A stretch of 64,000 bases of DNA, from positions 9,566 through 73,565 of the forward strand of contig JAUCBJ010006078.1 of assembly GCA_032718475.1 (NCBI GenBank), given 5' to 3'. The DNA is from Nemertoderma westbladi (taxonomy: Eukaryota; Animalia; Xenacoelomorpha). The notes beneath the pieces are model-generated. The model saw only the letters and a list, made by a program, of their open reading frames with translations. It was not told the DNA's origin and did not search any database. Every line of letters begins with the position of its first letter. The stretch's first letter is position 1. The position numbers and the translations under genes are program-made. Positions 10,565 to 40,271 of the stretch are shown piece by piece.

Positions 10565-10574
10565 GTAAGACAAT

Positions 10575-11500
10575 AGTTACTACTACTACTATTATGATCG
10601 GCATGATGCATTGCAGCTGCATTTTTAAGAATGCTGTGCCGGCTTGTCGACAAAATTGCACCGACACAACTCCCTCTAGATCATCCGCATCTTCAAGGCC
10701 AGCATCCTTTAAGATGCGTCTCAAGAATGTCATAGACTGACCACCATTATGCATTATGCATTGGCTGGTCCTCACGGCGAAAGCAATGTCCTGCAAAGCG
10801 GAGGCGACTTTGTTATAGTGTCAAGCTTGGGGCAACCACTGAGACACCTCCAATATTATATAGTGTCTGGTTGGAGATGTGTGCATTGTACTTTACACAA
10901 TGAACCCGGCGTAGCATTCTCGAATGTGCCATCCAGAGATTTTGTGTCCTCAGCAGTTAAGCCCAGCATGGACTCCCATAGAGGGAACTACTACTGCTCT
11001 AAATAATCGGACCTTAAACTTCCAGATCCTGGAAAACCTATTCAAGGCTGCCCATGCCTTTCCCTTACGTATTCGAAGGTCCTCACCTTACTTCCGGATC
11101 CATGATCCCAGGTAACAGAAGTCGTCCACATGCTTCAGCATACCATCCTTTGAGCTTATGCTCATCCAGTCAGCGTCTTGCTGAGGACTTTCAAAGTTAA
11201 CTGTAAAAATTTTGGTCTTTCTGGAGTTAATAAAAAGACAAACACTAGAAGCAGCCTGTTCTAATGAGCTGAGGGGCCTTTGGGCTCCCTCTAATGATTC
11301 TGAGAGTACTCCTAAGTCATTAGTTAGTAACTAGATCAGTTAGGTACTTGGCAGGATTTCCTCGACTTCTGGAGCCAGTAGGTGGAGTTATCATCACCCC
11401 ATCATCATTATGATTATCTAAGGACATGCGTAGAACATTTATGCACGAGTTCAACAATTATGAACAAGAATGGTGCAAGTGTGTCTCCTCAGAGGACGCG
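10575..11500 (-). mobile_element. 5'-truncated, decayed RTE-clade LINE in the host intron
   Basis: Minus strand gives GDTLAPFLFIIV, a frameshifted segment with SRGNPAKYLTDL, ESLEGAQ..LEQAASSV.LFINSRKTK and AGHCFRRED, ending in a (TAG)n tail near 10578-10592. Confidence 0.8.
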
Positions 11501-11610
11501 TGTTCAATTTTGAACGTTAATAACTCGATCAATCCTCGATGAAATGTAACCAAACTTGGTAGACAAATAGTCTGTCAAAAGTTTAGAAATTTTCCAAGTT
11601 GAATTTGTTT

Positions 11611-14789: not shown

Positions 14790-15544
14790 TTATATGGCAA
14801 ACTTTGACTGGATCATTTAAGTGGGTGAGTGCTGGAAAAGCTGGTGTTTGGAGTATCGGCACTAATGATGCAATTTTCTACCGAGAAGGGACATACGGAT
14901 CATGCAGTATTGGTACGAGATGGATAACTATCCCTGGGTCGCTCATCAATATTGCTGTTGGAAATGATATTGTTTGGGGAGTAAATGTAAACAATTACAT
15001 TTACTGGCGACATGTCAGTCAGCAAAATCCAAGTGGCAGTGCCTGGGAAGAGATGGACCATGTTCATCACCTTTCATGGATAACCGTTGACTCAACCAGC
15101 AACGGAGTCTGGGGTATCAATCGTGATAAGCTTGTGTTGAAAAGATTAGGTATATCGGCCTCAAATCCTGTTGGAACATCATGGTATCCTATTACTGGTG
15201 CTAGCATGGCAGACATCAGCTTCGGACCAGCAGGGCTTTGGGGGATCAACTTAGGATACGCTCCATACTACATGCAAGGCACCTTTGGTTCCAATAATAA
15301 TGTTGGAAGCTTTACAGGATGGGCAGCTGCAAACTGGCTAACGATTAGTTCAGGAGCAGATGGTACTTTATGGGCTACAAAGACAAACCATGAAATATAC
15401 ACAGCCACAGTGGAAGAAGGGAATATAAATCCAGTTTGGGAACGTGTAGGGAGTGGACTGAGGCATGTGAGCGCCAGTGATTGGAATGATGGGGTTTGGG
15501 GGGTGGATAATTCCGACTCGATAAAGTTTAAACAATGTTCTTAA
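14790..15544 (+). CDS. Host gene exon: tectonin/tachylectin-1-like six-bladed beta-propeller lectin
   Basis: Acceptor gtttttcag, phase 1. Repeated blades VSAGKAGVWSI, IAVGNDIVWGVN, ITVDSTSNGVWGIN, ISFGPAGLWGIN, ISSGADGTLWAT and VSASDWNDGVWGVD. Stop TAA at 15542-44. Confidence 0.92.
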
Positions 15545-19790: not shown

Positions 19791-22700
19791 AAAAAATGTT
19801 TTATTTTTCTACTCCATCCCCATTAGGTATTCAAAACCTCCAAAATTCTAGCTACTGTTGATAGAGAGGGAAATTCTGTATATAAGGGGTTAAATTTCTA
19901 TGACAATTGGATTTATAGATTTGGAGAAACGTGTACCCAAGTAAGTACACTACGAGTCGCGATATCTCGAATGGTGTAAATGAGGACCCAATTTCACAAC
20001 CGCATTAGCTTATATATATAATACAACCTTTAGTATAGGTTTTGATCGACTGCTCTTTTCTGTTCTGCTGTAGAAAATTCTGAAATTCCTGGATGAGACG
20101 GGATCGTAGATCCCGACCGGGTTAGATTAAGTATGGGTCACCGTTCTGCTGGGGCTGTTGAGCTACTGGTCGTTTTGGCCCAAGGCCGTCGGGGAAAATA
20201 ACAGAGTTTAGTGTTTCTCAATATTAATGTTCCGAATGATAATAGCCAGAATCAGTATGGAATGAATATCCTGATACAGAATGACAGCAGAAAATACACA
20301 GATATTAATTGGTGATGTTGGTGGCGGTGATGGTCATAAACTATGACCGGTCTGCAACTCTGTGATTAATGAACTGACCGGTAAATCAGTAATACAGAAT
20401 AGTCATAGAATAGAATAGTTATTGGTTTCACCTCTTACTCTACTTGGCCTTCTGTACCCAGTGAATGCTTTCCTATCCCTGTTCACGTGCTTCCCTCCCT
20501 GCTATTGCCTAATATAATAATTGTCACTTTGGCACCTCCAAGGTGGTTTGACCTCTCATCTCTCTCTGTGGCTTTAGGGCTTGTGTCGCCCCCCCCCCCC
20601 CCAAAGTTGGTTATGAGACGAGATTACTATTGGTAATCTCGTATCCCCAACTATATTAGTAAAATGCCACTGGTCCCATTTTCGGGTGGATAATGTAATG
20701 GAATTGAATCCGCTTACACTCCCACCCATGCTATCTTCCCGGTGAGAAGATAGCATCAACCTTAAGTGCGCTTCAATTCCGCTGGAACCCAATCTAATAT
20801 CGGGTGTGGGGTGGAGTTCTTTTCTCGGGGTCGGCTTTCCAGACCGCCTCCCTGGATGTGTTATTACTACCCATCCTTGGTGCAATCGCGAGCTAAGTTG
20901 CACCAAGGCATCTGATGTCTCTGTATTGGACAATTGTGCTCTCTCCTCACACAATTTTCTACAACCTCACTCTAATTTTCCTCACGTACCTCGTTGTCCC
21001 TTACTCTCACTCTCATCTTCCTTACGGACCTCGCTGTCCCTTAGTCTCACGTCGATCCCTTGGGACTCTTCCCCTCTCACTGCTCGCTCCCCACACTTGA
21101 ATTGCACTCCTTTCACTCACTCACGTGTCAACACCTCCTCTCCATACTTCCCCCGATTCTCCATTTTCGTTTTCATTCTCCATACACTTATTGGGTCCCA
21201 TGCATGTGCGCATCATGTTAGTGGGATCCGTCTAAGTCTTGTCCTACATATCGTACATATCATATGAGTTGTATATAATAATTAATTATTATATTATGTA
21301 TTATATGTATTATATTATATGCCCGTCTATACGACGCATCTTAACCCCCCCCCCCCTTTCAGAGGTGATATGACCCGTCACTCCCGGTCCCGTCCGTTCA
21401 TGCTCTCTCCGCCTTTCACTTCCTTACTAACCTTTCCACCATCACGAACTTTTCCTGCGCTCACCCAATTGGTGGGGCCTTACAAAGGCTCAATTTAAGT
21501 GAGTGCCGTTAAACAAGATGTTACAATATACCATACTCTACTTTCTTACTATGTGGCGCTCTCAGTGCCCACAACTTATAACTCTTATGGTACTATGTAC
21601 CCTACTACTTCTATGGTATACCTACATACCATACTCTCTACTCTCTTACTTCTAACTCTTATGGTACTATGTACCCTGCTACTCTCATGGTATGTCTATA
21701 TACCACACTCCCTATTCTCTAACTTCTAACTCTTACATTACTATGTACCCTGCTACTACTCTCATGGTATGTCTATATACCACACTCCCTATTCTCTAAC
21801 TACTTCAATGGTATGCCTATATACCATACTCTCTACTACTACTATTTCTATGGTATGCCTATATATCATAGTCTCTCTACTACTTTGTGCTACGTACTAT
21901 CTACTACTAATACTTTCTACTATTGTAAGGGTCCAGTAGTATACCGCTTACCAGATCCTAGTAACGATGTATCTTACTATGAGACTCTAGTAATGTATAC
22001 GGGCTTGTACAGTATCTGACAACAAATCCCAGTCCAGGATATCTAAACAAACAGATACAATACACAAACGACTACTGGCGAGGAACAGAGCCTAGTATCT
22101 ATTCTATGTACGTGAGCGGGTTTAATGCCTACGTACTAGACAAAAGGATACCTGTCCTCTAACCGGTGAGGCAGATGTACAGTTACAGTAACAGACCAAA
22201 CTCACGGGAAAACAATCCCCGCGCAGCGAATCCTAACTATCACTGACAGTCCTAAATACAGTAACTTGCCGCGGTGTGATTTATATGGTTTATATACGAG
22301 CTAGGTGGTTAACAGACCTAGTGTAACAATGCTGATTACCCCTGTCTAAATCAGCCTAAAAGGTCGTGCCTAAATGTAAGGATAACTGATCCCCCTGTAC
22401 GAAATCAGTCTAAAGGGTCAGGCCTAAATGTAACAATACTGCTGGACAGAAATCAACAGTTTAATAACGAAAATGAAATACTCTATCTTGCCGCAACTAA
22501 ATCAGATCCTAATTTTACAAATACAGATAATTTCTACCCAAAATAATGTACAGTGCGCTATAGCTAGTAGAACTTTAAAGGGCAATATGTTTTAGGGCGT
22601 GTGTGTGTGGGTGTGTTACAAATAAAACAATTTCGTGTAATTCCTTTACTAGGTTTTAGTGATTTTCTGACTAAATGATACCGTGCGCTAGCTACTAAAA

Positions 22701-24378
22701 TAAACTAGTCGCGTTTGTAGAACTTTATACTCACAAATGACGTCAAAGCTCTCTCCTTCCTATCCACAACCCAATGGGCAACCACAGTGTTAGTAACTAC
22801 ACCCGTGATCGGCACTAATACCAGATTCTGGTTGTAAGATAAGGAATAGGGGTTAATTGCTACCGTACGTTAGCTGATCTGGTATACTAATTTAATTCTA
22901 GAACTTTGTTGCTGCGGTAGTTAGCAGCAATACCTATCAGTACGTGGCAAGGCGCGGTAGGATATTAATAAACCTCCATAGGCCAAGCAGTGTGCCGGTA
23001 GCAGAAATACTCCTTGCCTGATCAAATAGCTAACTCCAGACAGGGGGGGGGGGGGGGGTACTAATGTACGTTCTACAAAGCGAACCGGTACCAAACAGTC
23101 AGTGCTACGAATCACTAAATTATGGAACATATGCTGTCCGTACCTAATATGTACTCGCGTACTGACGAATGGCAATAGTTCGCACCTGTAGGAAGTACAG
23201 GTTAACCCAGGGGTTCGTAGGACTGACAAAGGGGGGGGGGTGTTTCTGTCTGAATATAATTATTTGATCCTAAATTTGCGGCGTCCAGTACGGCGTCACG
23301 CTTACCCTGATCTATAAGTCTTACCTTCTCACAAAGCGGGCGCTGCATAGCAAGTGGAGTATTTCGAAGGGCAAAGGGGGTGCGCGGTCAATCCAAATGT
23401 GGGCGCTAGTGTGTTGTGGACATCTCTTCCCTGCGTTGCTTACCGCCTAACGGTCTAGGCTGCCATCTCCCTGATGTTTGGCTGTCCCAAAGTTGGACCA
23501 AAAGAAAACATGTTCAGGAATTTGCAGTATATTTACAGTTTTTACAAAGGATTTATCAAAATAAAGTTTCAACAAGAAACCGAAATAACTAATAACAATT
23601 TAGAATAACGTTATAAGGAGAATTTTACAAAGTGGTAAGAAGTCGTAGAAGGTGATAACCGAAGGCAAACCGGCCTTTTATACTAAATATCGCACATGGA
23701 AACTAAACAGACCCATGAACACACTCACCGCTCCATGAAAACAGTAAGTAAGACTGTTTTCACCAATCGAAACATAAAATATTTACAAACTACTTCTAAA
23801 TCTACTAGTAGGGCCTAAAATATAAAATATAATCACTATCTAATTATTGCATACTTAATATTGCAGATACGGCGTAAATACAATCGATCGTACATACAAA
23901 TACAAATTTACGAATTAACTTTAGTGCCTAAAATACAAAAAAAAGGCTTTCGGTTATCAAGGTAAGCAAATTAAACAAATCAGAACAAACAAATCGAACA
24001 AATAAATCAAAACAAATCAAACAAATAATTCAAACTCTTTCGATAAATCTTTATATATTGTAAATATACCTAATAAACCTTCACCAAATTAAATCGGTCC
24101 AAATATAATATAAACATAATGCGCTAATAACTTTCAATAATGTCCTCCTGACGATCTAATAGTTCGTCCTGCTGGTCTGGATATCTTCTCCTGAGCACCA
24201 ATTGCTAACGGTAGGCTCGCAAGCCTTCCTTTCCATATCTCGCTCCTCCAAACCCAACATTCAAACATAACGTCCAATATAAATATCCAAATATAATATC
24301 CAAATATGATATCCAAATAAAATATCCAAATAAATATCCAAAATCGGTAGGCTCGCAAGCCTTCCTTCCACTCGCTTC

Positions 24379-25170
24379 CTATTCCTTCGCTGAGCGGGCT
24401 CGTCCACGTCCTCTAGTGCGATTGGGGGGTGGTCGAGGTCGAACTGGGCTCGGACTTCGGCGTCGAGTCGTCGGTGGTTCCAAAACGCTAGGAAAGGGGA
24501 CGACGGGAGTTTCGCACATCCGTCGTGCGCTTAATCCTCTAAATCCTCGTCCGATTCCAACTGTCGGCTTAACATCGGATCGAGTTTCTACAACGCTAGG
24601 AGGAAGTCGAAAGGGTAGGACCGTTCCGTCCGTTGACACCTCGCTCTCTGACATCGTTTGAATCCTAATGGGTTCAGTCAAAGCGTATCCTGTCCCTCCG
24701 CGTGGTTCTCTAGCAAGGGAAACCGTGCCCCGAGTCATCCGGATTTGTGACTTCGACGTCGTCCTCTCGGCGACATTTACTATCTTCTTAATCTCTTGTC
24801 TGGCCTTCTGGGCTTTGAGTATACGAAATTGCTGATCATCCTGTGGGTGACGCGTCTTCTCTGCTAACGGCGTGGCCTTGAAGCCAGTCTCACGCAAAAC
24901 GTCGGTCTCGTCCAGAATGCACGAGGTTACGCGTTTGTGATAAAATGCGCTCCGGTATGCCCAAGCTATCGAATGCCAGGCTCCTCGATTCCGCTGTTCA
25001 ACTCGCAGTTTATCGAATTCTCCGGCGGTAATCTTGTTCACCACAGTTTGAAAGTTCCAAGTATTCTTGTTGTCGGGTTGCACTTGTAAGAAATAGTCCC
25101 GCACAACTTTGAATCCACTGTCCAACGGCAATATATCCAATACCTCCAACAATTCATCGTACTGAGGCAT
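24379..25170 (-). CDS. Accessory ORF of element A, 263 aa, unknown function, Arg/Pro/Ser-rich basic C-terminus
   Basis: Intact ATG-to-stop ORF in element sense, 25 nt after the 434-aa ORF; ends RRRSPSPVRPRPPPNRTRGRGRARSAKE. Confidence 0.7.
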   Translation of the reverse strand: MPQYDELLEVLDILPLDSGFKVVRDYFLQVQPDNKNTWNFQTVVNKITAGEFDKLRVEQRNRGAWHSIAWAYRSAFYHKRVTSCILDETDVLRETGFKATPLAEKTRHPQDDQQFRILKAQKARQEIKKIVNVAERTTSKSQIRMTRGTVSLAREPRGGTGYALTEPIRIQTMSESEVSTDGTVLPFRLPPSVVETRSDVKPTVGIGRGFRGLSARRMCETPVVPFPSVLEPPTTRRRSPSPVRPRPPPNRTRGRGRARSAKE

Positions 25171-25195
25171 AGCCGATACATATCCTTACATATCC

Positions 25196-26500
25196 TTATA
25201 TCATAGGTTTACCAGTCCAATTGGTCGCGATATCGGTGTCGGTCTCAAACGTCCCAACTCCGATCCATAATCGAATCATTTTCGTCAGATATCCTCGCAA
25301 GATACAAGGTGCGATATCCGTCCCCGCGCGATCCACTTCCTTAAAGTCCGTGATATGTGGAGGCACGTTGCGTACGATTTTTTGAACTATTACTTTACGC
25401 AACTCGGTTGATTCTAACACATCACAGAAGGTGACCGATGGGAGGAAATCCAGGTTCGAGATGATCTCCGGGTGTTCAACTATAGGGATCTCGTAAGTTG
25501 TCTCCTTCCGGGTCGGTATACTAATAGGAAAACTAGTTGGTCTCGCAACCGGTACTATCGCTCCAGTAGAATGGGGCTGAGGTTCTCGCGTCATCTCGAC
25601 ATGAGGTATCTGTAGTCTCTGCGACAAACGCTGAGCAAAGGTAATACTATCGAAGAGCTCGGGTGTCATCTCCTTGGGTTCGGTTTGATCGTGGGATATC
25701 CAATAGAATGGTAGGCTCGCGAGCCTTCCGCCGAACTCCTCGATCTCGCCTTTCTCGTACGCCTTGTACGCCCTGTAGAGGCTCAAAGCTTCCCGTTTCT
25801 CTTGTGTCGACTTATTAGACTCGTCCACTACCATGCTGTAGACGTCTGGTTCGACTAATTTAGGTTCGTAAATAACGATCTCACCCGCGTTCAGTCCACT
25901 CATTTTAAATGAATGATACGGATTTGTCAAAGGGTATCCGCCTTCTTGGTAACGTAGACTTTGGTGGTATGAACATCGCGCTAATATCGGCTCGGGGTTC
26001 TCCGAGTTCAACCGCATAGGAATCGCGTTGTCTTGCACGCGCATACACGCTCCACATTTATAAAACAGTTTGTATACGGAAAACGCGTCCTTGGTCTCTG
26101 GATCCGCTCCTCGAGCGCGTCTATAAAGATGCATTCCTTCAAATTCGTCTCTAGCTGCAGGTAAGGGTTCGTTTACCGTCAAATATTGCAGCGTATGATA
26201 CAATCGGCGTATTTCGGTGTCTGGATCCTCGCAAATGTCGCTAGCGTCGCATAACGCATCGTAGGGATATAACGCATTGTATTCCGCGCGTAATTCCTCC
26301 GTTCTTTTGTTGTATGCGTCCAACCGCTGTCGCGTAACATTTGGGTCCGCCTTGGATTTAGCGAGCTTGGCCGTACTCCTAGCCATACTCTCCACTCCAA
26401 ACACACTAAAGTTTTTAGCTCCATAACGATTGAATGGCGCCTGGTGCTCTTGTTCTTGCGTAAACCCTTGACGTAACTCTTTATACATCTTCTCTGCCAT
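25196..26500 (-). CDS. Accessory ORF of element A, 434 aa, unknown function, possible CxxC...CxxH Zn site
   Basis: Intact ORF downstream of integrase in element sense; CGAC...CSYH; no evident signal peptide or TM segment; preceded by a strong splice acceptor at 26541. Confidence 0.78.
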   Translation of the reverse strand: MAEKMYKELRQGFTQEQEHQAPFNRYGAKNFSVFGVESMARSTAKLAKSKADPNVTRQRLDAYNKRTEELRAEYNALYPYDALCDASDICEDPDTEIRRLYHTLQYLTVNEPLPAARDEFEGMHLYRRARGADPETKDAFSVYKLFYKCGACMRVQDNAIPMRLNSENPEPILARCSYHQSLRYQEGGYPLTNPYHSFKMSGLNAGEIVIYEPKLVEPDVYSMVVDESNKSTQEKREALSLYRAYKAYEKGEIEEFGGRLASLPFYWISHDQTEPKEMTPELFDSITFAQRLSQRLQIPHVEMTREPQPHSTGAIVPVARPTSFPISIPTRKETTYEIPIVEHPEIISNLDFLPSVTFCDVLESTELRKVIVQKIVRNVPPHITDFKEVDRAGTDIAPCILRGYLTKMIRLWIGVGTFETDTDIATNWTGKPMI

Positions 26501-26540
26501 TGTATACGAATATATGCGGTTACATATCGTTACATTTCTA

Positions 26541-26568
26541 CTAGATGAAGCACAAAATAGAGGTTAGA
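26541..26568 (-). promoter_or_regulatory. Splice acceptor upstream of the accessory ORFs
   Basis: Minus strand tctaac (branch point) + ctctattttgtgcttcatc + TAG/TAG, 41 nt before the ATG. Candidate donors are AAG/GTGAGT at 26737 and AAG/GTAAGT at 36193 and 36295. Confidence 0.6.
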
Positions 26569-28939
26569 TGTGAGGTGACTTAGAGTTTGTCGGCCTTTGG
26601 CTCAACTCTGCTCTAAACCCCAACCCATTTTGCCTAATGATTTCGGGTTCGCGTGATTTCGCACTGGCTCCTAATCCAAAATTGTGCCGATAAAAAACGA
26701 ATTCCGGGTAAACTAGCCGCGAGTCTAAAATACTCACCTTTTAATTTCCCAAACTACGTTTCCCAAGAAAAATAGTGCAGTCGAGAATTAATTGGTCTAA
26801 ATAATAGTAGACACGACTACGTAGAACAAGGCCGATTTTCTTTTTTCCAAAAAAAATTTATCGGTAGGCTTGCAAGCCTTCCATCCGCTCTTGTCCTCCC
26901 CAATTTTAATTTTATCTAGCTGTATTCTAGAATTTGCTTTCACTGGAGAATCGTTTTTCTTAAATTTAAATCCAAATAAATGGATTTGTCTAATAATTTT
27001 GAAAAATTGTCTCACTTGTGGGTTCCAAGTGGAATTCCATTCCTACTGTACACACAATCCCGCTCCTATGTGATACATAAGGGTACTACCCTCCATGTTC
27101 ACGTATAAAGACAATGGAATTCCACCGCTGTCTCTATCTACAGTGAAGAGGATTACAAATGCACGTACAGTAATACAAATGCAAATAACTAAAATACAGT
27201 AGGTCTATGTGGCGGCCAACAAAGGTCCCACATCTATTTACTAATATTGGGTGGAGATTTGTAGTCTCCTGTCTCGTTTCTAGTCTCCTCAAGGAGTACG
27301 AGACGTTGTACAGGCCTATCTACGGTACGTCCGTCGATAGTCCTTACAGTAACTGTCCTCACTACACCAGATGTAGGGTGCATGGTCAAAATGACTCCAG
27401 TCAGCCAAAACCGTCTTTTCAGATTAGCTTCAGCCAATAAAACATGGTCACCACTTCTTAAACATCGGGTATTTAGATACCAAGAAGTTCTGGTCGAAAT
27501 AGAGGGCAAATAATATTTCTGCCATATTTCCCAGAATTTATTTGCAAGCAATTGAGTGATTTTCCAAGCCTTGTTGCCGTATCCGTCACTATCAACGGGT
27601 ACCGAAATGGGCAACAATGTCGTCGGCGCGTGCATAAGCAGGTGCGCTGGTGTCAAGGCAAACTGTACGTCGTTATTGTCTGGGATCAAAGCGATCGGTC
27701 TAGTATTTAAGATTGCTTCGATTTCTATTAGTAACGTCGTTAGTTGGTCGTCTGTCAAAATGTGTTGCGTCGGTACGACTTTAGCCATAGCTGTCTTTAT
27801 TGAGCCAATCAGCCTTTCCCAAACGCCGCCTCTCCCCGGACTGTCTGGAGTATTGAAAAACCAAACAATACGGTGAGGACGTAGTTCCTCGGAAATCTGG
27901 TTTTGGTCCAATTTTCTCAAAGCTCTGGTTATTTCGTTCCGTGCACCCACAAAGTTTGTCCCTTGGTCGCAGTATATGGATTTGACCAATCCACGTCTAG
28001 CGATAAATCGCCGTAAGGCTAGGATAAAGGCATTGGTGGTCAAGTCTGTCACTCGCTCTATATGGACAGCTCTGCTGGCCATGCAAGTGAAGATCAATCC
28101 CCAACGTTTTACCTGTACCCTTCCGCGTTTCGCGATCAGAACAAACCTCGAACGTAAGTGTGATAGACAGTGGTGTCTACCTACGTGTTTGAGTTGTACA
28201 TGTGCGTCCAGTATCATGGCGCGCTGTAACTCATGGTGTTGCGGTATGATGATAGGATACCTAAAGTCAAGTGCAAAGTCGATGTTTTGGAGTCTGGACT
28301 TGTGACAAAGTAAGCCCTGGTAAATAATCGGACTCCAACTCAAAATCGGTGAAGACTTAATCTGTTTACCTTGTTTGATCGCTGTGAACTCTCGTGCGAA
28401 TATCGCAATTGATAATGTCGAATGATATCAACTTCACAGTGGCCAATTTCCTTTAAGGTAAGTCTTCTAGGAAAGTCGCGTTTGCCTCTGGCATATTGTC
28501 TCAATCGTTTGAGCCATGCTAACTTGCGGCACGCGTCAGTCCAGGATCTAGTTAGGTTCACTATCCTGTCAACGTAAGTGTTAGTGACGTCATCGGGTAA
28601 GGTGTAGTCGTAGTGTGGATACTTGTCTGGACTTGGTAGGCCCACGGGCCTTCCGGTAGGTTTGTCTGAGTCCCCAAGTACGTCAATCTCTACGGTCTTA
28701 CCTTTACCGTCCGCACCTAATGTGTCGACTGGCAGTAACGGTTTCAACTCTACAGTGTCAGTGTGCTCCTGTGAGCCTGTAAGCTTCCTAACCTTAGTCA
28801 CACGTTTACCTGTAGGTAAGTCAAGTACCTTCTTCGAGCGGAGTGTAATCCCTGTGGCCACACCTTTGTCGTCCAGAGAAGTCAAATTCGGTAAGTCTCT
28901 AAAGGTCCGCTCCAATGGGTCTTCTAATGGAGTGTCTAG

Positions 28940-29360
28940 TAGACAGTCCGGTGAAGCGTCTGGTGAACAGTCTGGCGAGACGTCTGGTGAGACATAGCGC
29001 GGAACATCCAGCGAAATGTCTTGTCGTTGGTCCCAAAGTCTGTCTAGCGTAACTTCCGTCAGAAAGTCTGGTTCAAAGTCTGGTCTAAAGTCTGGTGGAC
29101 AGTCTGTCGAGATGTCTGGTGGAAAGTCTGGTGAGACGTCCGGTAGACATTCTGTCGAGAGTTCTATCAAACAATCTGGCGAACAATCCGGAGAACAATC
29201 TGGTGTCGCTTCTGGTGAATAATCTGGCGAGTAATCTGGTGAACAATCCGGCGAAACGTCTGGTGAAATCTCCCGCGGAACATCCGGCGAAGGATTCGTA
29301 CAAGCGTCTGGTCGAGTGTCTGGCGAGACGTCTGGCGTAATGTCAGGTCTGGCGTCCAGG
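28940..29360 (-). repeat. In-frame 12-bp degenerate repeat (PDxS)n between RNase H and integrase
   Basis: Protein reads PDVSPDCSPDYSPDYSPEATPDCSPDCS. Confidence 0.85.
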
Positions 29361-30126
29361 TCATCAGATTTCGTCCGTCCTTTTTTCCTCTTGACCTTGG
29401 CGTTGGCTTTCGCTTTAGACTTGACAACCTTGTCGAGTTTTATCTCGGCACCCTCTGGTATGGTGTTGGTCGTCGCGTCGAATAACGGTGGCCATTCGTC
29501 TGATGGTCGCTGTAGGAAATCGGGTCCTCTAAACCAAAAGGATTTATTGTCCGGTTTACAAAAGTCAAGTGGTTGCATCCCCCGTGACGCGATGTCACCT
29601 GGGTTCAGCTTCCCTGGACAGTGACGCCAATCTTGTTTGAGCGACCGGTCTAGTATTTCAGCCCGTCTGTTGGCTACGAAAGTCTTGAACTCAAATGCTT
29701 TGTTGTTTATGTACCAAAGTACCAACGTCGCATCCGTCCAATACGTGACCTTCAAGTTAGCCTCCAGCTCGCGTTGAACTAGACTGATAATATCGGTGGA
29801 TATCGTCCCGGCTTGCAGCTCCCCGCGAGGTACAGTCATATACTTCAATGGCATTGTTCTAGCCCTTGAAGTAACGAGAGATACATCGTAGCTGTCCGAT
29901 GTCACTTGTCGTCTAAGGTATAAAGTAACCCCCAATCCATCCTTGCTAGCGTCACTAAAGCTGTGAAGCTCTAAATCGGCAGGAAAGGTGGTTTGCAAAG
30001 GAAAGTATACCCTTGGTATGGTATAGTCTTGTAGGAACGTCAGTTGGGCTTCCCAGTCCCTCCATCGCTCAGCTAACTTTGCTGGGATGGGATCGTCCCA
30101 TTCCAGTCCGGCTTGCCAAATGCTGC

Positions 30127-30420
30127 GGAGTATGATCCTAGCATGTAGGATCACTGGACTAATGAAACACAATGGGTCATACAATCGACTCATGGTCGAT
30201 AAGCAAGTTCTCTTAGTGAGAGGTCTAGTCTGGTCGTTGGACCTTACACGTACCCTAAAATTGTCGGTGTTAGGGAGTATGATCCTAGCATGTAGGATCA
30301 CTGGACTAATGAAACACAATGGGTCATACAATCGACTCATGGTCGATAAGCAAGTTCTCTTAGTGAGAGGTCTAGTCTGGTCGTTGGACCTTACACGTAC
30401 CCTAAAATTGTCGGTGTTAG
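30127..30420 (-). repeat. Exact 147-bp in-frame tandem duplication in pol
   Basis: The 49-aa block PNTDNFRVRVRS...LHARIIL occurs twice. Confidence 0.95.
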
Positions 30421-33400
30421 GGTCCCAACTAAGTCCTAATACTTTGGTCGTCGGCAGAGGTTCTAGGTCTAAGTCCAAGTCACCTCCACTGCGATCCGTC
30501 GGGTCAAATGAGTTCACCAGTTCGGGTTCGTTGGAAGCGAACTTCGTCAGATGAAATCCGCCCTCAGCGAGACAATCCTGGAGTTGGTGTGCTACGGTAG
30601 TAGCGCGCTCCAAGGTGTCACAACTCTTGAGGCCGTCATCCACGTAGAAGTCTCGTTCCACGGTCCGAACTACTTCTGGGTCAAATTGGTCTCGTCTGTC
30701 CAATGCTGTCTGCTTCAATGCGTACATGGTGCAGTTGGGGCTGTCCCTGGCTCCAAATACTCTTACCTGCATTTGGTAAGTTTCTGGCGGAAGTTGTAAG
30801 TTTCCGTCCGGATACCAAAGAAACCTCAAACTGTCCCTGTCCCGCTCCAAAGCCTTAACCTGGTGAAACATGGCCTCTACGTCACAGGTGAAAGCCACTT
30901 TGCGTTGTCTAAAACGCATTAGGACTCCCATGAGGTAATTATTCATATTCGGCCCGTCCATCAGTTCGCTGTTCATAGACATCCCTTGGTAAAGCGCAGC
31001 GCAGTCGTTGACTACACGCACCTTGCCAGGTTTGTCCGGGTGTCGAACAAAATGATGTGGCAGGTAATATGTCTGGTCTGTGGTTACCTCGGGATTTAAC
31101 ATCCTAATGGCGTATCCCTTTTGGAGATACGTCTGAAGTTGTGCATTGTATTGCATATGGGCCGTCTCGTCTCGCAACAATCGCTGCCTTATTGATTTGA
31201 GTCGCCTCAAAGCAAGCGGGTAATTGTTAACGAGTTTAGGTTGTCCATCGCGCCACAACATACCAACCTCATAGTAGCCATTCGCGGTCTGGCGAATGGT
31301 ATCTCTCATAATATTTAATGACCGTTTTTCCTGTTCTGACATAGCGGTCTCGTAACTACCAGGTTCTGCTGAGTCCTGTTCCGTTCAGTCAGCAGTCGGT
31401 CAAGCGCTGCTTGCACTGCGCCATGGTCCTCGTCCACGTCTTCGTCCGCTGCGGTGGCTAGTGTCAATGTGTCTGGTAGGCTCGCAAGCCTTCCGGTGTC
31501 ACTAGTCGGCGTCGAATCGTCGTGCGGCGGTTTGACAACCTTTTGATCTGTCGGTAGGCTCGCAAGCCTTCCAAGATCAACGACCGGTGTCGAAGCCTGG
31601 TGGGTGGGGTCAATGACCTTCGGATTTTTCGGTAGGCTCGCAAGCCTTCCAAAATCCTCGTTCATCGAGTCATCCATGGCAACAACCCTTAGGTCTTCAG
31701 TAGTCAATACAACCTGGTCTACTGCAAGTAGTTGTAAGTCAGAGGTCCGTATGGTCGTGTCCAGATCGGTTACGTCAGTATCGGTGGCGTCTGCATTAGC
31801 GACGCAGGTCTGTCGTAGTGCCGTCCGTACAATTGGACCACAGGAGTGTGAAGGAGAATTATCTATCGTGTTAGTCAATAAACTACACGTACTCAAAACG
31901 TCGTCCTCCTGGTCACTTACCTCTAGTGAACGTATTGGTGCTCTAGTATACCAACCTATGGGAGTTCTACATGCGTAGGGGTTGCCCGCTGTAATAACAG
32001 ATGGGCGTGTCTCCCATACCTGATGTAAGTTAAACTGGTCTGTCCCAATTAACATCGCAATAGAACGATAATTGACAGGACATTCCGGTATTCCAAGGTG
32101 TCGGAAATACTTACGATCTTCCGGTGATTGCTCTGGCACAGGGCCGAGCAAGTTACTAAAGTCCTTCGTAGCTGCAAAGGTCAAATTTCTTACTGGAAGT
32201 AATGAGCGCTCCACCTTGCTGTGTTCTGCTTTGGAAAGAAGAGTGTCTAAAGTTAATTTTACTCTCGTCACAGGAATCGCTCTCTTACCATGCATGCTGC
32301 TTACAGTATACTGAGCAGTCTTACCTTGACTCATGTCCGTAACTACGTCGGCTACTTGTTCGTCGACATAGCTATGCGATGACGCAGAGTCTAAGATGGC
32401 GTATATACGCTTGCTCCCTCGGGTTCCGGTAATCTTTATAGGAATCACGCTAAACCCTTTCAATTGGTTCTGTGTGAGGAGCGTTATCGAAGGCTGTTCC
32501 TCACCTGCATGCACGTAAAAAGTGTCGTCTTCCTCCTCGTCCTCGTCCGATGATCCTGACTGATCCATACAGTCGGTATAAAAGGTACGGATCTCGCGCG
32601 GCGCACGCTCCTTATAAAGCGCGTCGCATCTAGCCGCTTTATCTGGATGCTCTCGTCGAAAGCGTCTGGTCGGAGTATGACTAGTTGTGTGAAGCAACGC
32701 GTCATGGTTACGTCCACACAGAGAACATGTATCGTCGCTCGGGCAATCCTTCCGGACGTGTCCTGGCTTCATACATCTCCAACAGGAATCTAGAGATCGG
32801 ATTTGGAGTCTCCTCTCCTCGATCCCTAACTCTTTAAAAGCGCGACATCCACGTAGTTTATGTCCGCTATGGTTTCTGCCGTTCCGCTCGCAGTATGAGC
32901 ATCCCACAAAGTCCGCCGGCAACTGTTGTCGTGGCTGCGTGGTGCCGATAGGCGTCAGAACTTTAGAAGTCTCAGTAGGGGTGGCGTAAGTAACGGCTTT
33001 CGCGTTCGTCGGAAATGGTTTTGTCCGAGTCGGCGCAGAAACAGCTATCCCTTCCGCCGCGATATGGTGATCGGTATAGTTCGATAGAGTCTCGATCACG
33101 GCCTCCCGTGAAATAAGTTGATAGACATCGGTGAGTTTTAATAACCCTCCGGCCTCTTCACGCTGGTACTCGATGCGTCGCCATTCTCGTCGTAGTCGAT
33201 GGTGAAGTCGACCGATTATTCGAATGAGAACCGTCGGTGCGTTAGCGTACTCGAGTTGTCCAATGGACCGTAAAGTCCCTATAGCGTTCTTTATTTCGTC
33301 CGCGAGTCGTAAAAGGTCGATCGGTCTCGAAATGTTGCCTCCTCTGCAGAGGTCTTCAATGATGGATTTAGCCATGGCGACGTTACCGCCGTAAATCGAA

Positions 33401-36400
33401 TACAAACGGTCGTACGCCAATTCAAAGGCATCGGGAACTCCAATGAATGTTTCTGCTAATCGTTTCAGCTCACCAGACAGAACTTGGAGCAAGTAATTAA
33501 ACTTCTCCGTCGAGGTGAAAGCACACTTAGCGATCTAGGACTCTACGTAGTCTACCAGTGTGCGCCAGTGTTTCGCGTTGCCAGAGAACTTCGGCGGTTG
33601 CTGTGCCGGTAATCCGTGTCTAGCCGCGAATTTCGCAATCTCGCTAACCAAATCCAACTGTCCGCGTCCTTGTTCGGTGGCGTCGTCCAGTCGCTCCCTT
33701 CCGTGCGTTGTTCGTCGGTAGGAATTATTAACGGGATCTTCTTCTCGATGTGTCGGAGTCCGTCTAGTCTCCTGTTCTCTCCTCGGTGGTCGATGTTGTC
33801 TAGGTTGTTCCAACTCCACGCTGGTTCGTGATCGATCCGACGGTTGCGCTTCGAGTCGCTCTTCTATCTGAGCTAGTCGGTCCGCTACAGGTCGCATTAT
33901 TTCGGCGAGTCTGTTGGTGCTGATCGCTTCCGCTGGTTGCAACGTGGGTTTCTGTTGGGGTGTTTCTCGAGGTGGATTGTCGATGTAGGGATTCGTCGAC
34001 CTCTCCTCTCGTTTGTAATCTTCCGCCGCTCCAGTACGGAATATTTCCCGTTCCGTCGACTCCGAGTCGCTAGATGAGTCGCTGTCGTCCGGATAAGGTG
34101 GCTGGCGGGTTCGTGTCCGGCGTATTATTCTAGATTTCGTCCGTTGCGGTCCGGAATCTACGGCTCTCCGTTGTTCGGTAGGCTCGCAAGCCTTCCACGA
34201 AGTCGTAGGTCTCGCTATACGTTGTCCGATCCCGTGGGTACTACCCACATCCATCCTCCTCCGTAATTCGGTAGGCTCGCAAGCCTTCCACGAAGTCGTA
34301 GGTTGCGTCGAACATTGTGTCAACGGTCGAGTGAAATAGTCGGGTTTCGTAGTCGGTCTATAAATAACTGGATTTGCACAGCACGTCACAGGTTTAACTT
34401 GTAATGGTTTACTCACCTGTTTAATGGTCATAAACGCAGGTTCCTCTCTTCCTACAAGTAGACTACGACTTACTGTAGGTGGACTAGTTACGTTACCTGC
34501 TAAAATCGGCGATGAAGTCGCCCTAGGTTACGGTATTTCTGTCACAACAAACCTGTTGCCTTGCGTCGGATGCACAGGCGTTATTCCCTTAGGTTTCGTA
34601 ACGAAGACCGGTTTTATCGGATTCGTGGGTTTGAGCATAGGAATAACTTGGGGAAAACGTTTACAGTAATCCTCGACGAACTCCTCTCCTCGATCTATCG
34701 CTCCCACACTTCCTTCCTCGATCCGCTTCTGTATGCCGCGATATCGAGCTTCCATACGATCCAGGGCAGACAAGTCGTGTCCAGTCCGCGATCTTATAGA
34801 TCTATCTCTCGCGTCGAGTTCGAGGTCCGCTTGCGCGTTCGCTGTCTCGCGCGATCTACGATTCAATTCGAACTGTAGTTGCATCTCCCTTTCGCGTCGA
34901 TTCGCTACTTGTTGTTGTGCCGCTAACTCCGCTTCCTGTATAGCTAAGCGTGCGTTTATTTGTCGTGCCTCCAACTTAGCGCGAGCATCGGACGCTGCCT
35001 TCTTCCGTGCTAACTCAGCTGCGTTTACCGCCGCAACTCGTACTAGCTCGTCGGCTGCCGTCTGTCGTGCTAACTCGTCCGCTGCTGCTGCCGCGGCCGC
35101 TTCTTGCGCCAAGTTTTCCTCCAATCTGCGCATTTCCGAAGCTTCGAATTCGGCTTGCGCCTTGAGTTGCGCAATTCTTGCTTCGTCCTCTCTATGTTGT
35201 TTCTCTCCTTCGATGGCGATCTGTGCCATCTGGTGTTGCGCTTCTTCCTCGGCGACTTGTTGTCGGCGTGCAACCTCCTGTTGTTGTCGAGTAATTCCAG
35301 ACGCTGTTCTACTAACGTCGCCAACGTCGCCAACGTCGCTCCGTACGCTAACGAACGATCTATCCAGTGGTGGATGTTGGTAGGCTCGCGAGCCTTCCGT
35401 AGTGAGAACTTCCGTCGTCCCTCGCGGTTCGACTTCCGGTTCGTCGATCGGTACGCCGCATCTACGAAGAAAATTGGTCAGCGTTTCCAACCTTCCGTCC
35501 AGGCAGTAGAGTTCTTCTTCCTCTTCGGGTTGTAACAACGCGTCCGAAACTGACTCACCTAGCAGTTGGTCAAACTGCTCCTGTTGAGCCAATCTTATTA
35601 CTGACTTAAACTGGATAATGCTTTCTCTCGCACTTACTAATTTATCTACTATCTTTACCTGAGTAAAGTTGTCGCCACGCAACTCCGCAAGTTCGTGTAA
35701 ACCTTTAAGTTTATCTACGGAGGCATGTACCCTACTTTCTATCCTTACCTGTAAGGTGTAGAACTCGTATCTCAACATCGGGGCAGTTAACTCGCGTAAA
35801 ACGCGAAAACCTTCTCCGAGGTTCCGAGTAATCTGGGCCATGGGTCCTCCTATACTTCTAATAACGTTCTCCTGGCTTCCAGTCGAACTTACCATGTCCG
35901 GTTCCCGTGATCTAGTCTGCGGGACGGTAAGGAAATCTTCGATTCTGCCGTCGCCACGCGTTGCGGCTTCCGGTATTTCCGTTCGGGGTACCGGCGACGC
36001 AAGCGGTGTGACATCGATGGAATCTCGGGTTCTCCTTCTCGGTTCGTCTACTGTCGATCTGTCCGGGTCGAACGAGTCATAGTCGGTAGGTGGGTATCTC
36101 GTTGAACGGGGTGTGTCACTCATGTCTTATTATATACGTCAAGTACGGGTAATAAAATGTCAAAGTGTCTGAATGTTGAAGTGTCAAACTTACCTTGGTA
36201 TATATAGTATATATATACCCTAACCGGTACAAATAAATCAACAAGTCAGAATGTCGAAATGTCAAAATGTCGAAATGTACAAATGTCAAACTTACCTTGT
36301 TATATATATATCATATATATACCCTAACCAGTACAAATAAACTAACAAGGTATATAATAAAATAAGTAGTAATCTAGCCTACCGGCTAAATTTGTACGAA

Positions 36401-38962
36401 TAAATGAGATAACGATATACGTTAACAAAATATAGATCAACAAGTACGAATAATAGGCTAAACAGCAACGTCTAACGGGAAAATAAGTACCAACAACACT
36501 ACTAATAGACAGTGAAACCCACAAATTTTGAGTACTACTGTGCTTTCTTAAGTTTGAACGACGCGAGTCATAAAACTTACGTTCCTTTGATCTTCCAGTC
36601 GTACAAATTCCCAAATACAAACCGGACGTGGGTCTTTCCATTTTTCGGCGGCGCGGACGAATTTATTGTCTCCCAAACTTTGCGAAAAGCGGTCTAATCC
36701 TCGAAGCGGTCCAGAAATGAGTCCTTGAGTCCTGAAAAGGTCGAAGGTGAGAGTTTTACTTCTACGCTTACGAAAAATCTTCCTAGGTACCGATACAAAT
36801 TGGTCTTTAAACCCTATGTACCTTTTCAAGTACCGAAAAGTAACACCGCACACACACGGCGTAAAACAAAGTGCTACAAACTAACTGTTAGCTAGTCAAA
36901 TATTAAATACGAAAGTACTAGCTACCCTAAAAGCCTACTGAAGCAGGGGACGTTCTAAATTACTAAATTTACTAACCTTAAATTTTAAATATCTCCTACT
37001 TTCAAATAGCTAGCAGATCTAAACAATACTATACACTAATTTCAGAATTTGTATAATATACTTCCTACTGTTGTCAGATTGTAGTGCGCACGCACTACAA
37101 AGCGTACAGATCTAAACAATACTATACACTACGGTAGAAATACTATACACTAATTTCAGAATTTGTATAATAATACTTCCTACTGTAAGGGTCCAGTAGT
37201 ATACCGCTTACCAGATCCTAGTAACGATGTATCTTACTATGAGACTCTAGTAATGTATACGGGCTTGTACAGTATCTGACAACAAATCCCAGTCCAGGAT
37301 ATCTAAACAAACAGATACAATACACAAACGACTACTGGCGAGGAACAGAGCCTAGTATCTATTCTATGTACGTGAGCGGGTTTAATGCCTACGTACTAGA
37401 CAAAAGGATACCTGTCCTCTAACCGGTGAGGCAGATGTACAGTTACAGTAACAGACCAAACTCACGGGAAAACAATCCCCGCGCAGCGAATCCTAACTAT
37501 CACTGACAGTCCTAAATACAGTAACTTGCCGCGGTGTGATTTATATGGTTTATATACGAGCTAGGTGGTTAACAGACCTAGTGTAACAATGCTGATTACC
37601 CCTGTCTAAATCAGCCTAAAAGGTCGTGCCTAAATGTAACGATAACTGATCCCCCTGTACGAAATCAGTCTAAAGGGTCAGGCCTAAATGTAACAATACT
37701 GCTGGACAGAAATCAACAGTTTAATAACGAAAATGAAATACTCTATCTTGCCGCAACTAAATCAGATCCTAATTTTACAAATACAGATAATTTCTACCTA
37801 AAATAATGTACAGTGCGCTATAGCTAGTAGAACTTTAAAGGGCAATATGTTTTAGGGCGTGTGTGTGTGGGTGTGTTACAAATAAAACAATTTCGTGTAA
37901 TTCCTTTACTAGGTTTTAGTGATTTTCTGACTAAATGATACCGTGCGCTAGCTACTAAAATAAACTAGTCGCGTTTGTAGAACTTTATACTCACAAATGA
38001 CGTCAAAGCTCTCTCCTTCCTATCCACAACCCAATGGGCAACCACAGTGTTAGTAACTACACCCGTGATCGGCACTAATACCAGATTCTGGTTGTAAGAT
38101 AAGGAATAGGGGTTAATTGCTACCGTACGTTAGCTGATCTGGTATACTAATTTAATTCTAGAACTTTGTTGCTGCGGTAGTTAGCAGCAATACCTATCAG
38201 TACGTGGCAAGGCGCGGTAGGATATTAATAAACCTCCCTAGGCCAAGCAGTGTGCCGGTAGCAGAAATACTCCTTGCCTGATCAAATAGCTAACTCCAGA
38301 CAGGGGGGGGGGGGGGGGGGTACTAATGTACGTTCTACAAAGCGAACCGGTACCAAACAGTCAGTGCTACGAATCACTAAATTATGCTGTCCGTACCTAA
38401 TATGTACTCGCGTACTGACGAATGGCAATAGTTCGCACCTGTAGGAAGTACAGGTTAACCCAGGGGTTCGTAGGACTGACAAAGGGGGGGGGGGGGGTGT
38501 TTCTGTCTGAATATAATTATTTGATCCTAAATTTGCGGCGTCCAGTACGGCGTCACGCTTACCCTGATCTATGGGTCTTACGGCGGGCAAGGGCGTCGAA
38601 CAAAGTCTTACCTTCTCACAAAGCGGGCGCTGCATAGCAAGTGGAGTATTTCGAAGGGCAAAGGGGGTGCGCGGTCAATCCAAATGTGGGCGCTAGTGTG
38701 TTGTGGACATCTCTTCCCTGCGTTGCTTACCGCCTAACGGTCTAGGCTGCCATCTCCCTGATGTTTGGCTGTCCCAAAGTTGGACCAAAAGAAAACATGT
38801 TCAGGAATTTGCAGTATATTTACAGTTTTTACAAAGGATTTATCAAAATAAAGTTTCAACAAGAAACCGAAATAACTAATAACAATTTAGAATAACGTTA
38901 TAAGGAGAATTTTACAAAGTGGTAAGAAGTCGTAGAAGGTGATAACCGAAGGCAAACCGGCC

Positions 38963-38969
38963 TTTTATA
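38963..38969 (-). promoter_or_regulatory. TATA box of the element A 5' LTR
   Basis: TATAAAA on the minus strand with an upstream CCAAT near 39046-50. An Inr-like TCAC places +1 at 38940, 29 nt downstream. The related LTR has TATATAA at about 59966. Confidence 0.7.
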
Positions 38970-39255
38970 CTAAATATCGCACATGGAAACTAAACAGAAT
39001 TTTCCACAGCTTCACATTTGAGCAATAAAGTGCTTCGTGCCCTATGATTGGCCCAGCTCATCGTTCAACGCAGTCCGGCCCTTACACTAATCTGGGACAT
39101 GGAATCCTAACAGAATTTTCCACTGCCTCACATTTGAGCAATAAGATAATTTATGCCCTATGATTGGCCTGGCTCATCATTCGCTACGTTGTACGCTTCT
39201 CATTGGCCTACCAATTAGCACCAAACGAAAATAAATGGTCCCAAAATACAATTTT

Positions 39256-39325
39256 CCCGACCGGGATTCGAACTCGTAACCTATGTAATGTAACCAACGC
39301 CTTAACCATCTGACCACTACGCCAC
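39256..39325 (-). other. tRNA-like Pol III module (A and B boxes) inside U3 of the family A LTR
   Basis: gtggtcagatggttaaggcg...gagttcgaatccc; a homologous module is at 59715-59785 in the related LTR. Confidence 0.65.
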
Positions 39326-40271
39326 GAGAGTACCTAAGGGTTTTATGTGTACAAATATGAATAGGCATATTACATTACTGTAACTCAATCAAAATACGTC
39401 GGATTTTCGAAAGTTTTTACGTTAAAGTTAAACTACAAATGCTATCTTATAGTGAAATAATTCATCAACTATCTTACTTCTTATTTTATTATTTGCTTAT
39501 TATATTTTATTATTATTTCTTATTACATTATATTATATTCTTATTAGATTTGCCCTTATTTATTTTTTATATTTTTATGTGTGGGAAGGGCATCTCGCCC
39601 TCATTCCTACCCCACTTAGTCCAACATATTGGATGACTAAACTCTAAGGTGACCCTTCCAATAGGCAACACTTTCCCACAGCCCTCCTGTAGGTCTTCCT
39701 ATCTTTGGCCCTTATCTTCCCTCCTATCCAAGTCCGTCATGCTTCCGTCCGGGAAATACACGCATGGCATGCTGTACGTCCCCATCTCCTTTAGACTCCG
39801 CGTCCACTTGCTCCACTGTCAACTTATTTCTTCCGGGACTTCCGTATCCCACTCAACCTTTAACTTATATACTTTCTTTAGTATTTGCTTCCCCGTGACT
39901 AACAATGGGGATGCTAGGGCTAGGGGATCGTATATCCTTGCTATGTACGATACATAGCCCCGCTTAGTGTGGATCTCTGCACCCTCTTGGCTCAGTTGAT
40001 ACTCCAACTCGTCCATCTCCCAGTTCCACACGATCCCTAGTGCCTTTTGCTGCGACTCCACTCTCTTGTTCTCCATAACCTGTCCCTTTCTTGTTGTGGG
40101 ATTGTCCATGGTCGACTCTGGTCGTTTGTCTTCTATGGCCTTCATAAATTCCTCAGAGCTGGACTGGAACTTAGTAAGGTTGAACCCGGATCCTTTTAGG
40201 ATGTCACGAACCTCGCGTCCTATCTCCAGTATCTCTTCAACCGTGTTTCCAGATCCCATCCCATCATCTAC

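What the first reader, a model, noticed from the sequence alone, without database searches (positions are those of the whole stretch)
24379..26737. Two intact non-env accessory ORFs in the env position, with subgenomic splice signals
Seen: 434-aa and 263-aa ORFs lie in sense orientation after integrase, 25 nt apart, and both are open while gag-pol is broken. There is a strong acceptor at 26541, with consensus donors in the 5' leader (36193, 36295) and at 26737. The first protein has a possible Zn site; the second has an RRRSPSP/RG basic tail reminiscent of nucleic-acid-binding capsid tails. Established: some BEL elements carry env here, but these ORFs lack evident signal or TM segments. Inference: an accessory module that may act on the 20-nt hairpins or counter host silencing.
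Basis: partly seen in the sequence, partly recalled or inferred. Interest (0 to 1): 0.78.

Follow-up and report, generated by a model that had tools for sequence, protein, structure and literature searches.

The report
Selected orphan gene in BEL retrotransposon
A BEL/Pao jumping gene carries, where an envelope gene would sit, protein-coding sequence with no relative found in our searches, which its many copies keep under selection; it likely encodes a regulator of the element's own RNA that may bind eleven repeated hairpins, and the split into two genes is likely a lesion of this one copy.

Summary
The two ORFs (434 and 263 aa), three donors and the acceptor are at the stated places, in a 17.5-kb BEL/Pao element. 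They are real coding sequence: among differences to other copies in two independent runs, 29 of 40 listed are synonymous (13 expected, P about 1e-7). Neither protein has a signal peptide, a membrane segment or any homologue found, so this is not env. Correction: 'two intact ORFs 25 nt apart' likely describes only this decayed copy. Other copies diverge from it at 25203 and 25187, and ORF1's stop lies in the unshared segment, so the family form is probably longer, perhaps one gene. Splicing is untested because no RNA holder was listed. Eleven same-orientation 20-nt hairpins are real (0.005 expected) and are read in all three frames. Best guess (0.35): a CERV/Rev-like nuclear RNA-binding regulator made from spliced RNA that helps export of the unspliced genome. 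Binding is not shown. Non-env genes in this position are a known kind, and this scan noted others in Gypsy elements; I found none described for BEL/Pao.

The parts
25196..26500 (-). ORF1, 434 aa in this copy; predicted helical, acidic (pI 5.7), CxxC-x23-CxxH motif at residues 149-179; C-terminal end probably cut by a lesion
   Evidence: 20 of 28 listed variants synonymous; loose ends at 25203
24379..25170 (-). ORF2, 263 aa from the first ATG in this copy; basic (pI 10.4), R/S/P/G-rich tail; true start uncertain
   Evidence: 9 of 12 listed variants synonymous
25188..25202 (-). Segment not shared by other copies; holds ORF1's stop and part of a 10-nt tandem duplication; likely lesion filler
   Evidence: tables 7 and 8; sequence
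26538..26560 (-). Candidate splice acceptor (pyrimidine tract, tandem AG at 26541 and 26538), followed by two ATG-TAA start-stops (26535, 26525) before the ORF1 ATG
   Evidence: use not observed
26732..26740 (-). Consensus splice donor, GT at 26737
36188..36298 (-). Two consensus leader donors (GT at 36295 and 36193) in an 86% identical tandem duplication upstream of the gag ATG
24210..35398 (-). Eleven 20-nt hairpins starting at 35398, 34289, 34196, 31650, 31572, 31494, 28654, 26882, 25729, 24365, 24229; same orientation; invariant A-A mismatch in the stem
27234..36123 (-). BEL/Pao gag-pro-pol (zinc knuckle, RT, Peptidase_A17, integrase with DUF5641), broken in this copy
37184..39467 (-). 5' LTR (TG...CA, about 2.3 kb) with CCAAT-like boxes and a TATA box at 38969
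21924..23711 (-). 3' LTR, lacking the first ~470 nt of the 5' LTR; 5-bp target-site duplication outside both ends

Best explanation
The region is a selected, non-envelope accessory gene of a multi-copy BEL/Pao family, likely split in this copy by a lesion, and its product likely works like CERV or Rev, as a predicted nuclear RNA-binding regulator that would help the unspliced genomic RNA leave the nucleus. Steps: (1) shown: protein-coding and under purifying selection; (2) shown: no env features; (3) inferred, about 0.8: the ORF1/ORF2 junction of this copy is not the family form; about 0.55 that typical copies have one gene of roughly 700+ aa; (4) inferred, about 0.7: made from a subgenomic RNA spliced from the leader donors to 26541, with its own ATG; (5) inferred: because the genomic RNA carries strong splice sites it needs protection or export, and the Zn-motif plus basic-tail protein would supply this by binding and multimerising on the 11 hairpins.
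For: Selection: 29 of 40 listed places synonymous against 12.8 expected, 27 of 31 among places that vary between copies, no stops, approximate pN/pS 0.16-0.18. Only 5 indel places at 2% or more in 2,191 nt, against 10 of 12 listed indel places in non-coding parts. No signal or TM segment. Zn motif and Arg-rich tail. Excess of consensus donors. Hairpins: 11 against 0.005 expected, one orientation, read in all three frames, all variant positions still pair and the commonest loop pair is U-G. Contigs with unlike neighbouring letters still have a hairpin just after ORF2's end (table 5c). Precedent: CERV is a 517-aa orphan in the env position of Cer1, made by splicing, with a Cys loop, and required for genomic RNA export (PMC10309623).
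Against: No RNA evidence of transcription or splicing was available. The hairpins are not confined to or enriched in the would-be intron (8 of 11 against 72% of the length; three lie in the retained part). Covariation is not significant (51 of 500 shuffles, only 4 distinct rows). No sequence or fold link to CERV, Rev or any RNA-binding family, and both models are unusable (pLDDT 33 and 43). Unlike CERV, no consensus donor in gag-pol has the phase to fuse gag to ORF1 (0 of 16). NES-like patterns are common in shuffles. A 1-nt deletion at 26412 is seen in 2 contigs each of X3 and X4, and internal-deletion copies exist, so not every copy keeps the gene.
Confidence: 0.35

Rival explanations
1. A particle-associated nucleic-acid chaperone or packaging helper. 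The hairpins are Gag packaging or dimerisation signals (the 20-mer is near self-complementary), and the accessory protein acts in the cytoplasm.
For: The R/S/P-rich tail recalls capsid tails such as hepadnaviral core (recalled, not tested); the hairpins run from gag to the 3' UTR; the near-palindrome allows intermolecular pairing.
Against: gag already has a zinc knuckle; three hairpins lie in the predicted subgenomic RNA, which suits selective packaging poorly.
Confidence: 0.2
2. An anti-silencing or transactivating factor (works like plant VANC, or a viral transactivator) that binds the 20-mer as double-stranded DNA pseudo-palindrome.
For: Zn motif and basic tail; an element-specific repeated motif, as with VANC targets (PMC5735166 abstract); a near-palindrome suits a dimer.
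Against: All 11 copies have one orientation, 8 of 11 are in coding sequence and none is in the LTRs; the U-G pair and the A-A mismatch fit RNA structure better; VANC targets often form tandem repeats.
Confidence: 0.15
3. A captured, fast-evolving protein that counters host defence (for example piRNA or RNAi) or has an unrecognised enzymatic role, independent of the hairpins.
For: Other LTR elements carry enzymatic ORF3s (PMC5408684 abstract); nothing here links protein and hairpin directly.
Against: No enzyme or host family match.
Confidence: 0.2
4. A highly diverged or truncated envelope/fusogen.
For: It sits in the env position, some BEL/Pao elements carry env, and the junction is damaged, so a segment is unseen.
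Against: No signal peptide, no TM segment, only 7 + 2 Cys, a basic C-terminal tail; no match to solved or viral fusogens (the gH rows at E 1.7 are noise).
Confidence: 0.05
5. Anatomy rival: two separate genes in the family, ORF2 being reached by reinitiation or by an acceptor lost from this copy.
For: The two parts differ in charge (pI 5.7 against 10.4); ATG-TAA start-stops precede both ATGs in this copy.
Against: ORF1's stop sits in the segment other copies do not share; no acceptor passes the filter between 26541 and ORF2's ATG.
Confidence: 0.45

Closest known systems
CERV of C. elegans Cer1 (Ty3/Gypsy; Sun et al. 2023, PMC10309623; read: abstract, passages, sections 9 and 15)
   Same: [quoted passage not shown]
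   Different: Different superfamily (BEL/Pao here); no sequence link found; CERV shares exons with gag, whereas no in-phase gag donor was found here; the sections read name no repeated hairpin; CERV's function is shown by experiment, this one is not
Non-env ORF3s of LTR retrotransposons (bdelloid GDSL and DEDDy ORF3s, PMC5408684 abstract; plant extra ORFs of unknown function, PMC6431247 passages)
   Same: Extra conserved ORF downstream of pol in lieu of env
   Different: Those are recognisable enzymes or plant-lineage ORFs; this one matches no family and is paired with a dispersed hairpin
env-like genes of Belpaoviridae (Roo F-like, mosquito gB-like, Atlas Gn-Gc; PMC8742986 whole text, PMC13524379 passages, PMC9094657 search listing)
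   Same: Same superfamily and position
   Different: No signal peptide, TM anchor or fusogen homology here
HIV Rev/RRE and MPMV CTE (as described in PMC10309623 section 15)
   Same: Predicted logic: regulator from spliced RNA, structured cis-element, export of unspliced RNA
   Different: Rev is small and binds one structured region (size recalled); here the protein is large and the candidate element is 11 dispersed 20-mers
VANC anti-silencing proteins of VANDAL transposons (PMC5735166, abstract and outline)
   Same: TE-encoded accessory protein plus an element-specific repeated motif
   Different: Plant DNA transposons; DNA targets in non-coding tandem repeats; here the motif is dispersed, mostly in coding sequence and in one orientation

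Membership tests
Belpaoviridae (BEL/Pao) | gag with zinc knuckle, then pol in the order PR-RT-RH-IN, with Pao-type domains | tested here: met
   zf-CCHC (E 0.003, below cut-off), RVT_1 (weak), Peptidase_A17 E 3e-46, DUF5641 E 5e-19; 910 integrase relatives at E<=1e-20, listed ones 38-46% identical
Belpaoviridae (BEL/Pao) | Flanking LTRs with TG...CA ends and a target-site duplication | tested here: met
   5 mismatches in 1795 aligned positions (2 of them beyond the true end); 5-bp duplication, and the flanks align across the site as one repeat
Belpaoviridae (BEL/Pao) | tRNA primer-binding site after the 5' LTR and polypurine tract before the 3' LTR | tested here: inconclusive
   No TGG-type PBS seen after 37184; the 3' LTR start is missing in this copy (by eye)
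Belpaoviridae (BEL/Pao) | Typical size 4.2-10 kb, LTR 0.2-1.2 kb (descriptive range, PMC8742986) | tested here: not met
   17.5 kb with a 2.3-kb 5' LTR; unusually large, but the range is descriptive and does not define membership
Retroelement env / fusogen | N-terminal signal peptide and a C-terminal TM anchor | tested here: not met
   Hydropathy scan only; the segment missing at the junction is unseen
Retroelement env / fusogen | Homology to F, gB or Gn-Gc fusogens | tested here: not met
   fold searches uninformative
CERV/Rev-like export regulators | Made from a spliced mRNA | not testable with these tools
   No RNA holder listed; consensus sites present
CERV/Rev-like export regulators | Shares exons with gag (CERV) | tested here: not met
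   0 of 16 GTRAG donors in gag-pol have the needed phase
CERV/Rev-like export regulators | Sequence or structural homology to CERV or Rev | tested here: inconclusive
   No hit; whether CERV is in those libraries was not checked; models unusable
CERV/Rev-like export regulators | Nuclear, binds genomic RNA, needed for its export | not testable with these tools
   Needs experiments
VANC anti-silencing system | Targets in non-coding tandem repeats, bound as DNA | tested here: not met
   8 of 11 motifs in coding sequence, dispersed; binding not testable

The most novel reading that the evidence does not exclude
A BEL/Pao element has independently evolved a complex-retrovirus-style regulator and response-element pair: a large orphan Zn/Arg-rich protein made from spliced RNA that assembles on eleven dispersed 20-nt hairpins written through gag, pol and the 3' UTR, licensing export of the unspliced genome.
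Probability: 0.2. Interest if true: 0.8.

Novelty: new variant of a known kind. Interest (0 to 1): 0.5.

Why it matters
How LTR retrotransposons export intron-bearing genomic RNA is largely open, and CERV is the one worked example I found among retrotransposons. Here both halves of a possible system can be read from sequence: a selected orphan protein and a sharply defined 20-nt repeated hairpin, so binding can be tested directly. Even if they prove unrelated, this is a new selected protein with no relative found and an unusually large BEL/Pao element.

Tried and rejected
No whole genome was held, so full-length copies could not be compared. Homology searches that found nothing: Pfam, word-index search for ORF1 and ORF2 within limited length ranges, phmmer of ORF1 against 1.84 billion representatives (ORF2 was not searched there), PDB sequences (gH rows at E 1.7-1.8 are noise), PHROGs and NCBIfam (all below cut-off), ESM Atlas (one 0.75 lead, an unnamed mostly nematode cluster, below the useful level; none), related loci in metagenomes, Rfam. 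Even the integrase has no listed relative above 46%, so these blanks are expected and do not prove novelty. Single-sequence AlphaFold models were unusable, and the fold searches on them are meaningless. Hairpin pattern: 0 viral contigs; 5 metagenome loci of 56-63% GC with no tblastn match to any element protein, taken as chance. No RNA holder listed. X5 is only guessed to be RNA, has no depth in the bin of the acceptor and was not used as evidence. X7 and X8 (other organisms) laid nothing, which is no proof of absence. A third ORF in 27204-26797 was rejected: it has an in-frame stop here, and 3 of the 12 listed indel places, all frame-shifting, fall in it. A gag-fused, CERV-type splice was rejected on phase. 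NES-like patterns are not distinctive. Read depth was not used as copy number or expression. Complex prediction was not used, as there was no testable protein pair. The term 'bel pao' matched no listed paper, so those two searches say little about BEL/Pao; PMC8556966 passages gave nothing relevant. Repbase reports and subscription papers were not searchable, and no supplements were opened.
Full report
Setting. The finding lies in a BEL/Pao LTR retrotransposon on the minus strand. Pfam gives Peptidase_A17 (E 3e-46), DUF5641 (E 5e-19) and weak RT and zinc-knuckle matches in the expected order. The element runs from 39467 to 21924 (17.5 kb), has TG...CA ends and a 5-bp target-site duplication, and its two flanks align as one stretch to a repeat at 52-53 kb. 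The LTRs differ at 5 of 1795 aligned positions plus a few indels, so the insertion is young. The copy is nevertheless damaged: stops at 34530 and 33537, a frame change near 28400, and a 3' LTR lacking its first ~470 nt. The ICTV profile gives 4.2-10 kb and LTRs of 0.2-1.2 kb as typical (PMC8742986, whole text), so this element is unusually large. The listed integrase relatives are 38-46% identical (120 listed of 910): no close family is in the databases.

Observation. ORF1 (26500-25196, 434 aa) and ORF2 (25170-24379, 263 aa) are as stated, and 0 of 1000 shuffles of the region give an ORF of 263 aa. Their GC (48 and 52%) matches gag-pol (50%), not the flanking non-coding parts (39 and 32%). That they are open while gag-pol is broken means little, since 2.1 kb escapes such lesions with probability 0.4-0.5. 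The donors at 36295, 36193 and 26737 and the acceptor at 26541 are there. Four perfect donor 9-mers occur on the sense strand against 0.2 expected (0 of 200 simulations), though two are one duplication. The acceptor is one of five sites passing my pyrimidine filter in 2.85 kb and the last before ORF1. No GTRAG donor in gag-pol (0 of 16) has the phase to fuse gag to ORF1, so ORF1 would use its own ATG, behind two ATG-TAA start-stops. No run on record as RNA holds the region; splicing and expression are untested.

Selection. Four DNA runs from three studies of one organism hold half or more of the region's words. Contigs laid on the ORFs span identity bands from 80 to 100% (1180 contigs in X3, 75 in X4), so this is a multi-copy family with diverged subfamilies. 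The tool listed the 40 best-supported of 433 variable places. Of these, 29 are synonymous against 12.8 expected from codon make-up and transition bias (P 1.3e-7): 20 of 28 in ORF1 and 9 of 12 in ORF2, no stops, approximate pN/pS 0.18 and 0.16 (a site count, not a codon model). The other two sense frames give 2-6; the mirrored antisense frame scores alike, as expected, but holds no long ORF. Among places that vary between copies 27 of 31 are synonymous; among places nearly private to this copy only 2 of 9 are, which fits a selected family and a decaying copy. The integrase control was 5 of 10. Only five indel places reach 2% in the 2,191 nt laid: an in-frame 3-nt loss, a compensated pair and two single-base losses, one of them in two contigs of each run. 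In the wider lay, 10 of the 12 listed indel places (of 44) are non-coding. None of the listed variants touches C149, C152, C176 or H179, but 393 places were not shown.

Correction at the junction. Contigs of other copies match up to 25203 and then go on unlike this copy (12 contigs in X1, 10 in X3, 4 in X4, median loose length 20, 25 and 83). Two X4 contigs do the same from the other side at 25187. One is a close copy (6 differences in 470 nt, depth 112 where X4 totals about 180). None of the listed long pieces spans 25186-25203, though most pieces were not shown. The unshared 15 nt hold ORF1's stop and part of a 10-nt tandem duplication. The 25-nt spacer is therefore probably a lesion of this copy that removed some tens of bases or more. 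No acceptor passes the filter between 26541 and ORF2's ATG, so ORF2 has no evident route of its own. I put a lesion at about 0.8 and a single gene of roughly 700+ aa at about 0.55; whether the frames join in typical copies is left open.

What the protein is not. There is no signal peptide or TM segment. No homologue turned up in Pfam, PHROGs, NCBIfam, PDB, 5.8 billion proteins, 1.84 billion representatives (ORF1 only), the ESM Atlas or metagenome contigs. Single-sequence models are unusable (pLDDT 33 and 43), and the fold searches gave nothing. What remains is a CxxC-x23-CxxH motif (1 of 2000 shuffles) and a tail with 11 basic residues in 32.

The hairpins. A 20-mer occurs 11 times from gag to the 3' UTR, all in sense orientation, and nowhere else in the window, including the LTRs; 0.005 copies are expected. 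Eight lie in coding sequence, in all three frames, so they are kept as nucleotides and not as peptide. Each folds as a stem with an invariant A-A mismatch and a four-base loop (-7.6 kcal/mol; -9.6 for one). All variant positions still pair, two pairs change on both sides and the commonest loop pair is U-G, which fits RNA, but covariation is not significant with four distinct rows (51 of 500 shuffles). Contigs whose neighbouring letters differ still carry a hairpin just after ORF2's end (table 5c, read by eye). Rfam has no match. Eight of 11 lie in the part a leader-to-26541 splice would remove, which is 72% of the internal region: no enrichment.

Mechanism. An element with strong splice sites must still export unspliced RNA. 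Cer1 solves this with CERV, an orphan 517-aa protein from spliced mRNA, partly encoded in the env position, with an essential Cys loop (PMC10309623; abstract, passages, sections 9 and 15). The anatomy here fits that logic and offers a candidate response element, so I commit to a CERV/Rev-like regulator at 0.35. Rivals are a packaging helper (0.2), a hairpin-independent counter-defence or enzyme (0.2), a VANC-like DNA binder (0.15; PMC5735166 abstract) and a diverged env (0.05). It is not filed as a CERV member: gag exon sharing was tested and not met, and homology was not found.

Novelty. Extra ORFs in lieu of env are a known kind (PMC5408684 abstract; PMC6431247 passages), and this scan's unchecked notes list several in Gypsy elements of other genomes, one also rich in hairpins; none resembles this sequence. 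For BEL/Pao the papers I saw describe only env-like third genes. Searches showed no non-env BEL/Pao accessory gene or dispersed hairpin system, but two of them used a term that matched nothing, and Repbase and subscription papers are outside the library. Verdict: a new variant of a known kind; real and selected, anatomy corrected, function inferred. Interest 0.5.

Noticed in passing
window 39467-38999 and 23711: The 5' LTR has about 470 nt (repeated CCAAT-like boxes and a stretch resembling tRNA A/B boxes, by eye; ARAGORN finds no tRNA) that the 3' LTR lacks. This is probably a deletion of the polypurine tract and U3 in this copy. The shared part starts about 30 nt before the TATA box, leaving an unusually long (about 1.75 kb) R-U5.
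   Followed up: partly
window 59615-60747 (+): A 74-85% identical partial copy of the LTR, including part of the segment missing from the 3' LTR: a related subfamily.
   Followed up: partly
window 21500-21923 and 39468-39730 versus 52460-53120: The element is nested in another repeat that recurs at 52-53 kb and lies beside BEL-like pol remnants.
   Followed up: yes
window 26535, 26525, 25191: ATG-TAA start-stop elements, each in the context GATATGTAA or AAATGTAA, just upstream of both ORF starts; they may tune translation.
   Followed up: no
window 28920-29350: A long insert of 12-nt repeats (xSPD-rich, acidic) in pol between RNase H and integrase, and an exact 147-nt tandem duplication at 30127-30422.
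   Followed up: no
window 24509-25938 and 25999-26228: Internal deletions inside the accessory region recur in two independent runs: deletion derivatives of the family exist.
   Followed up: no
window 26871: The loop variant of the hairpin at 26882 is peculiar to this copy; nearly all reads of three runs differ here.
   Followed up: partly
window 10414-15544 (+): Host-gene exons with an EGF-like segment and a Trp-rich repeat segment that recalls tectonin lectins (recalled; no NCBIfam match; not scanned in Pfam).
   Followed up: no
window 34528-36123: The gag region is very long (about 900 codons before the zinc-knuckle part), with an Ala/Glu/Arg-rich, probably coiled-coil N-terminal part and no Pfam match.
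   Followed up: no
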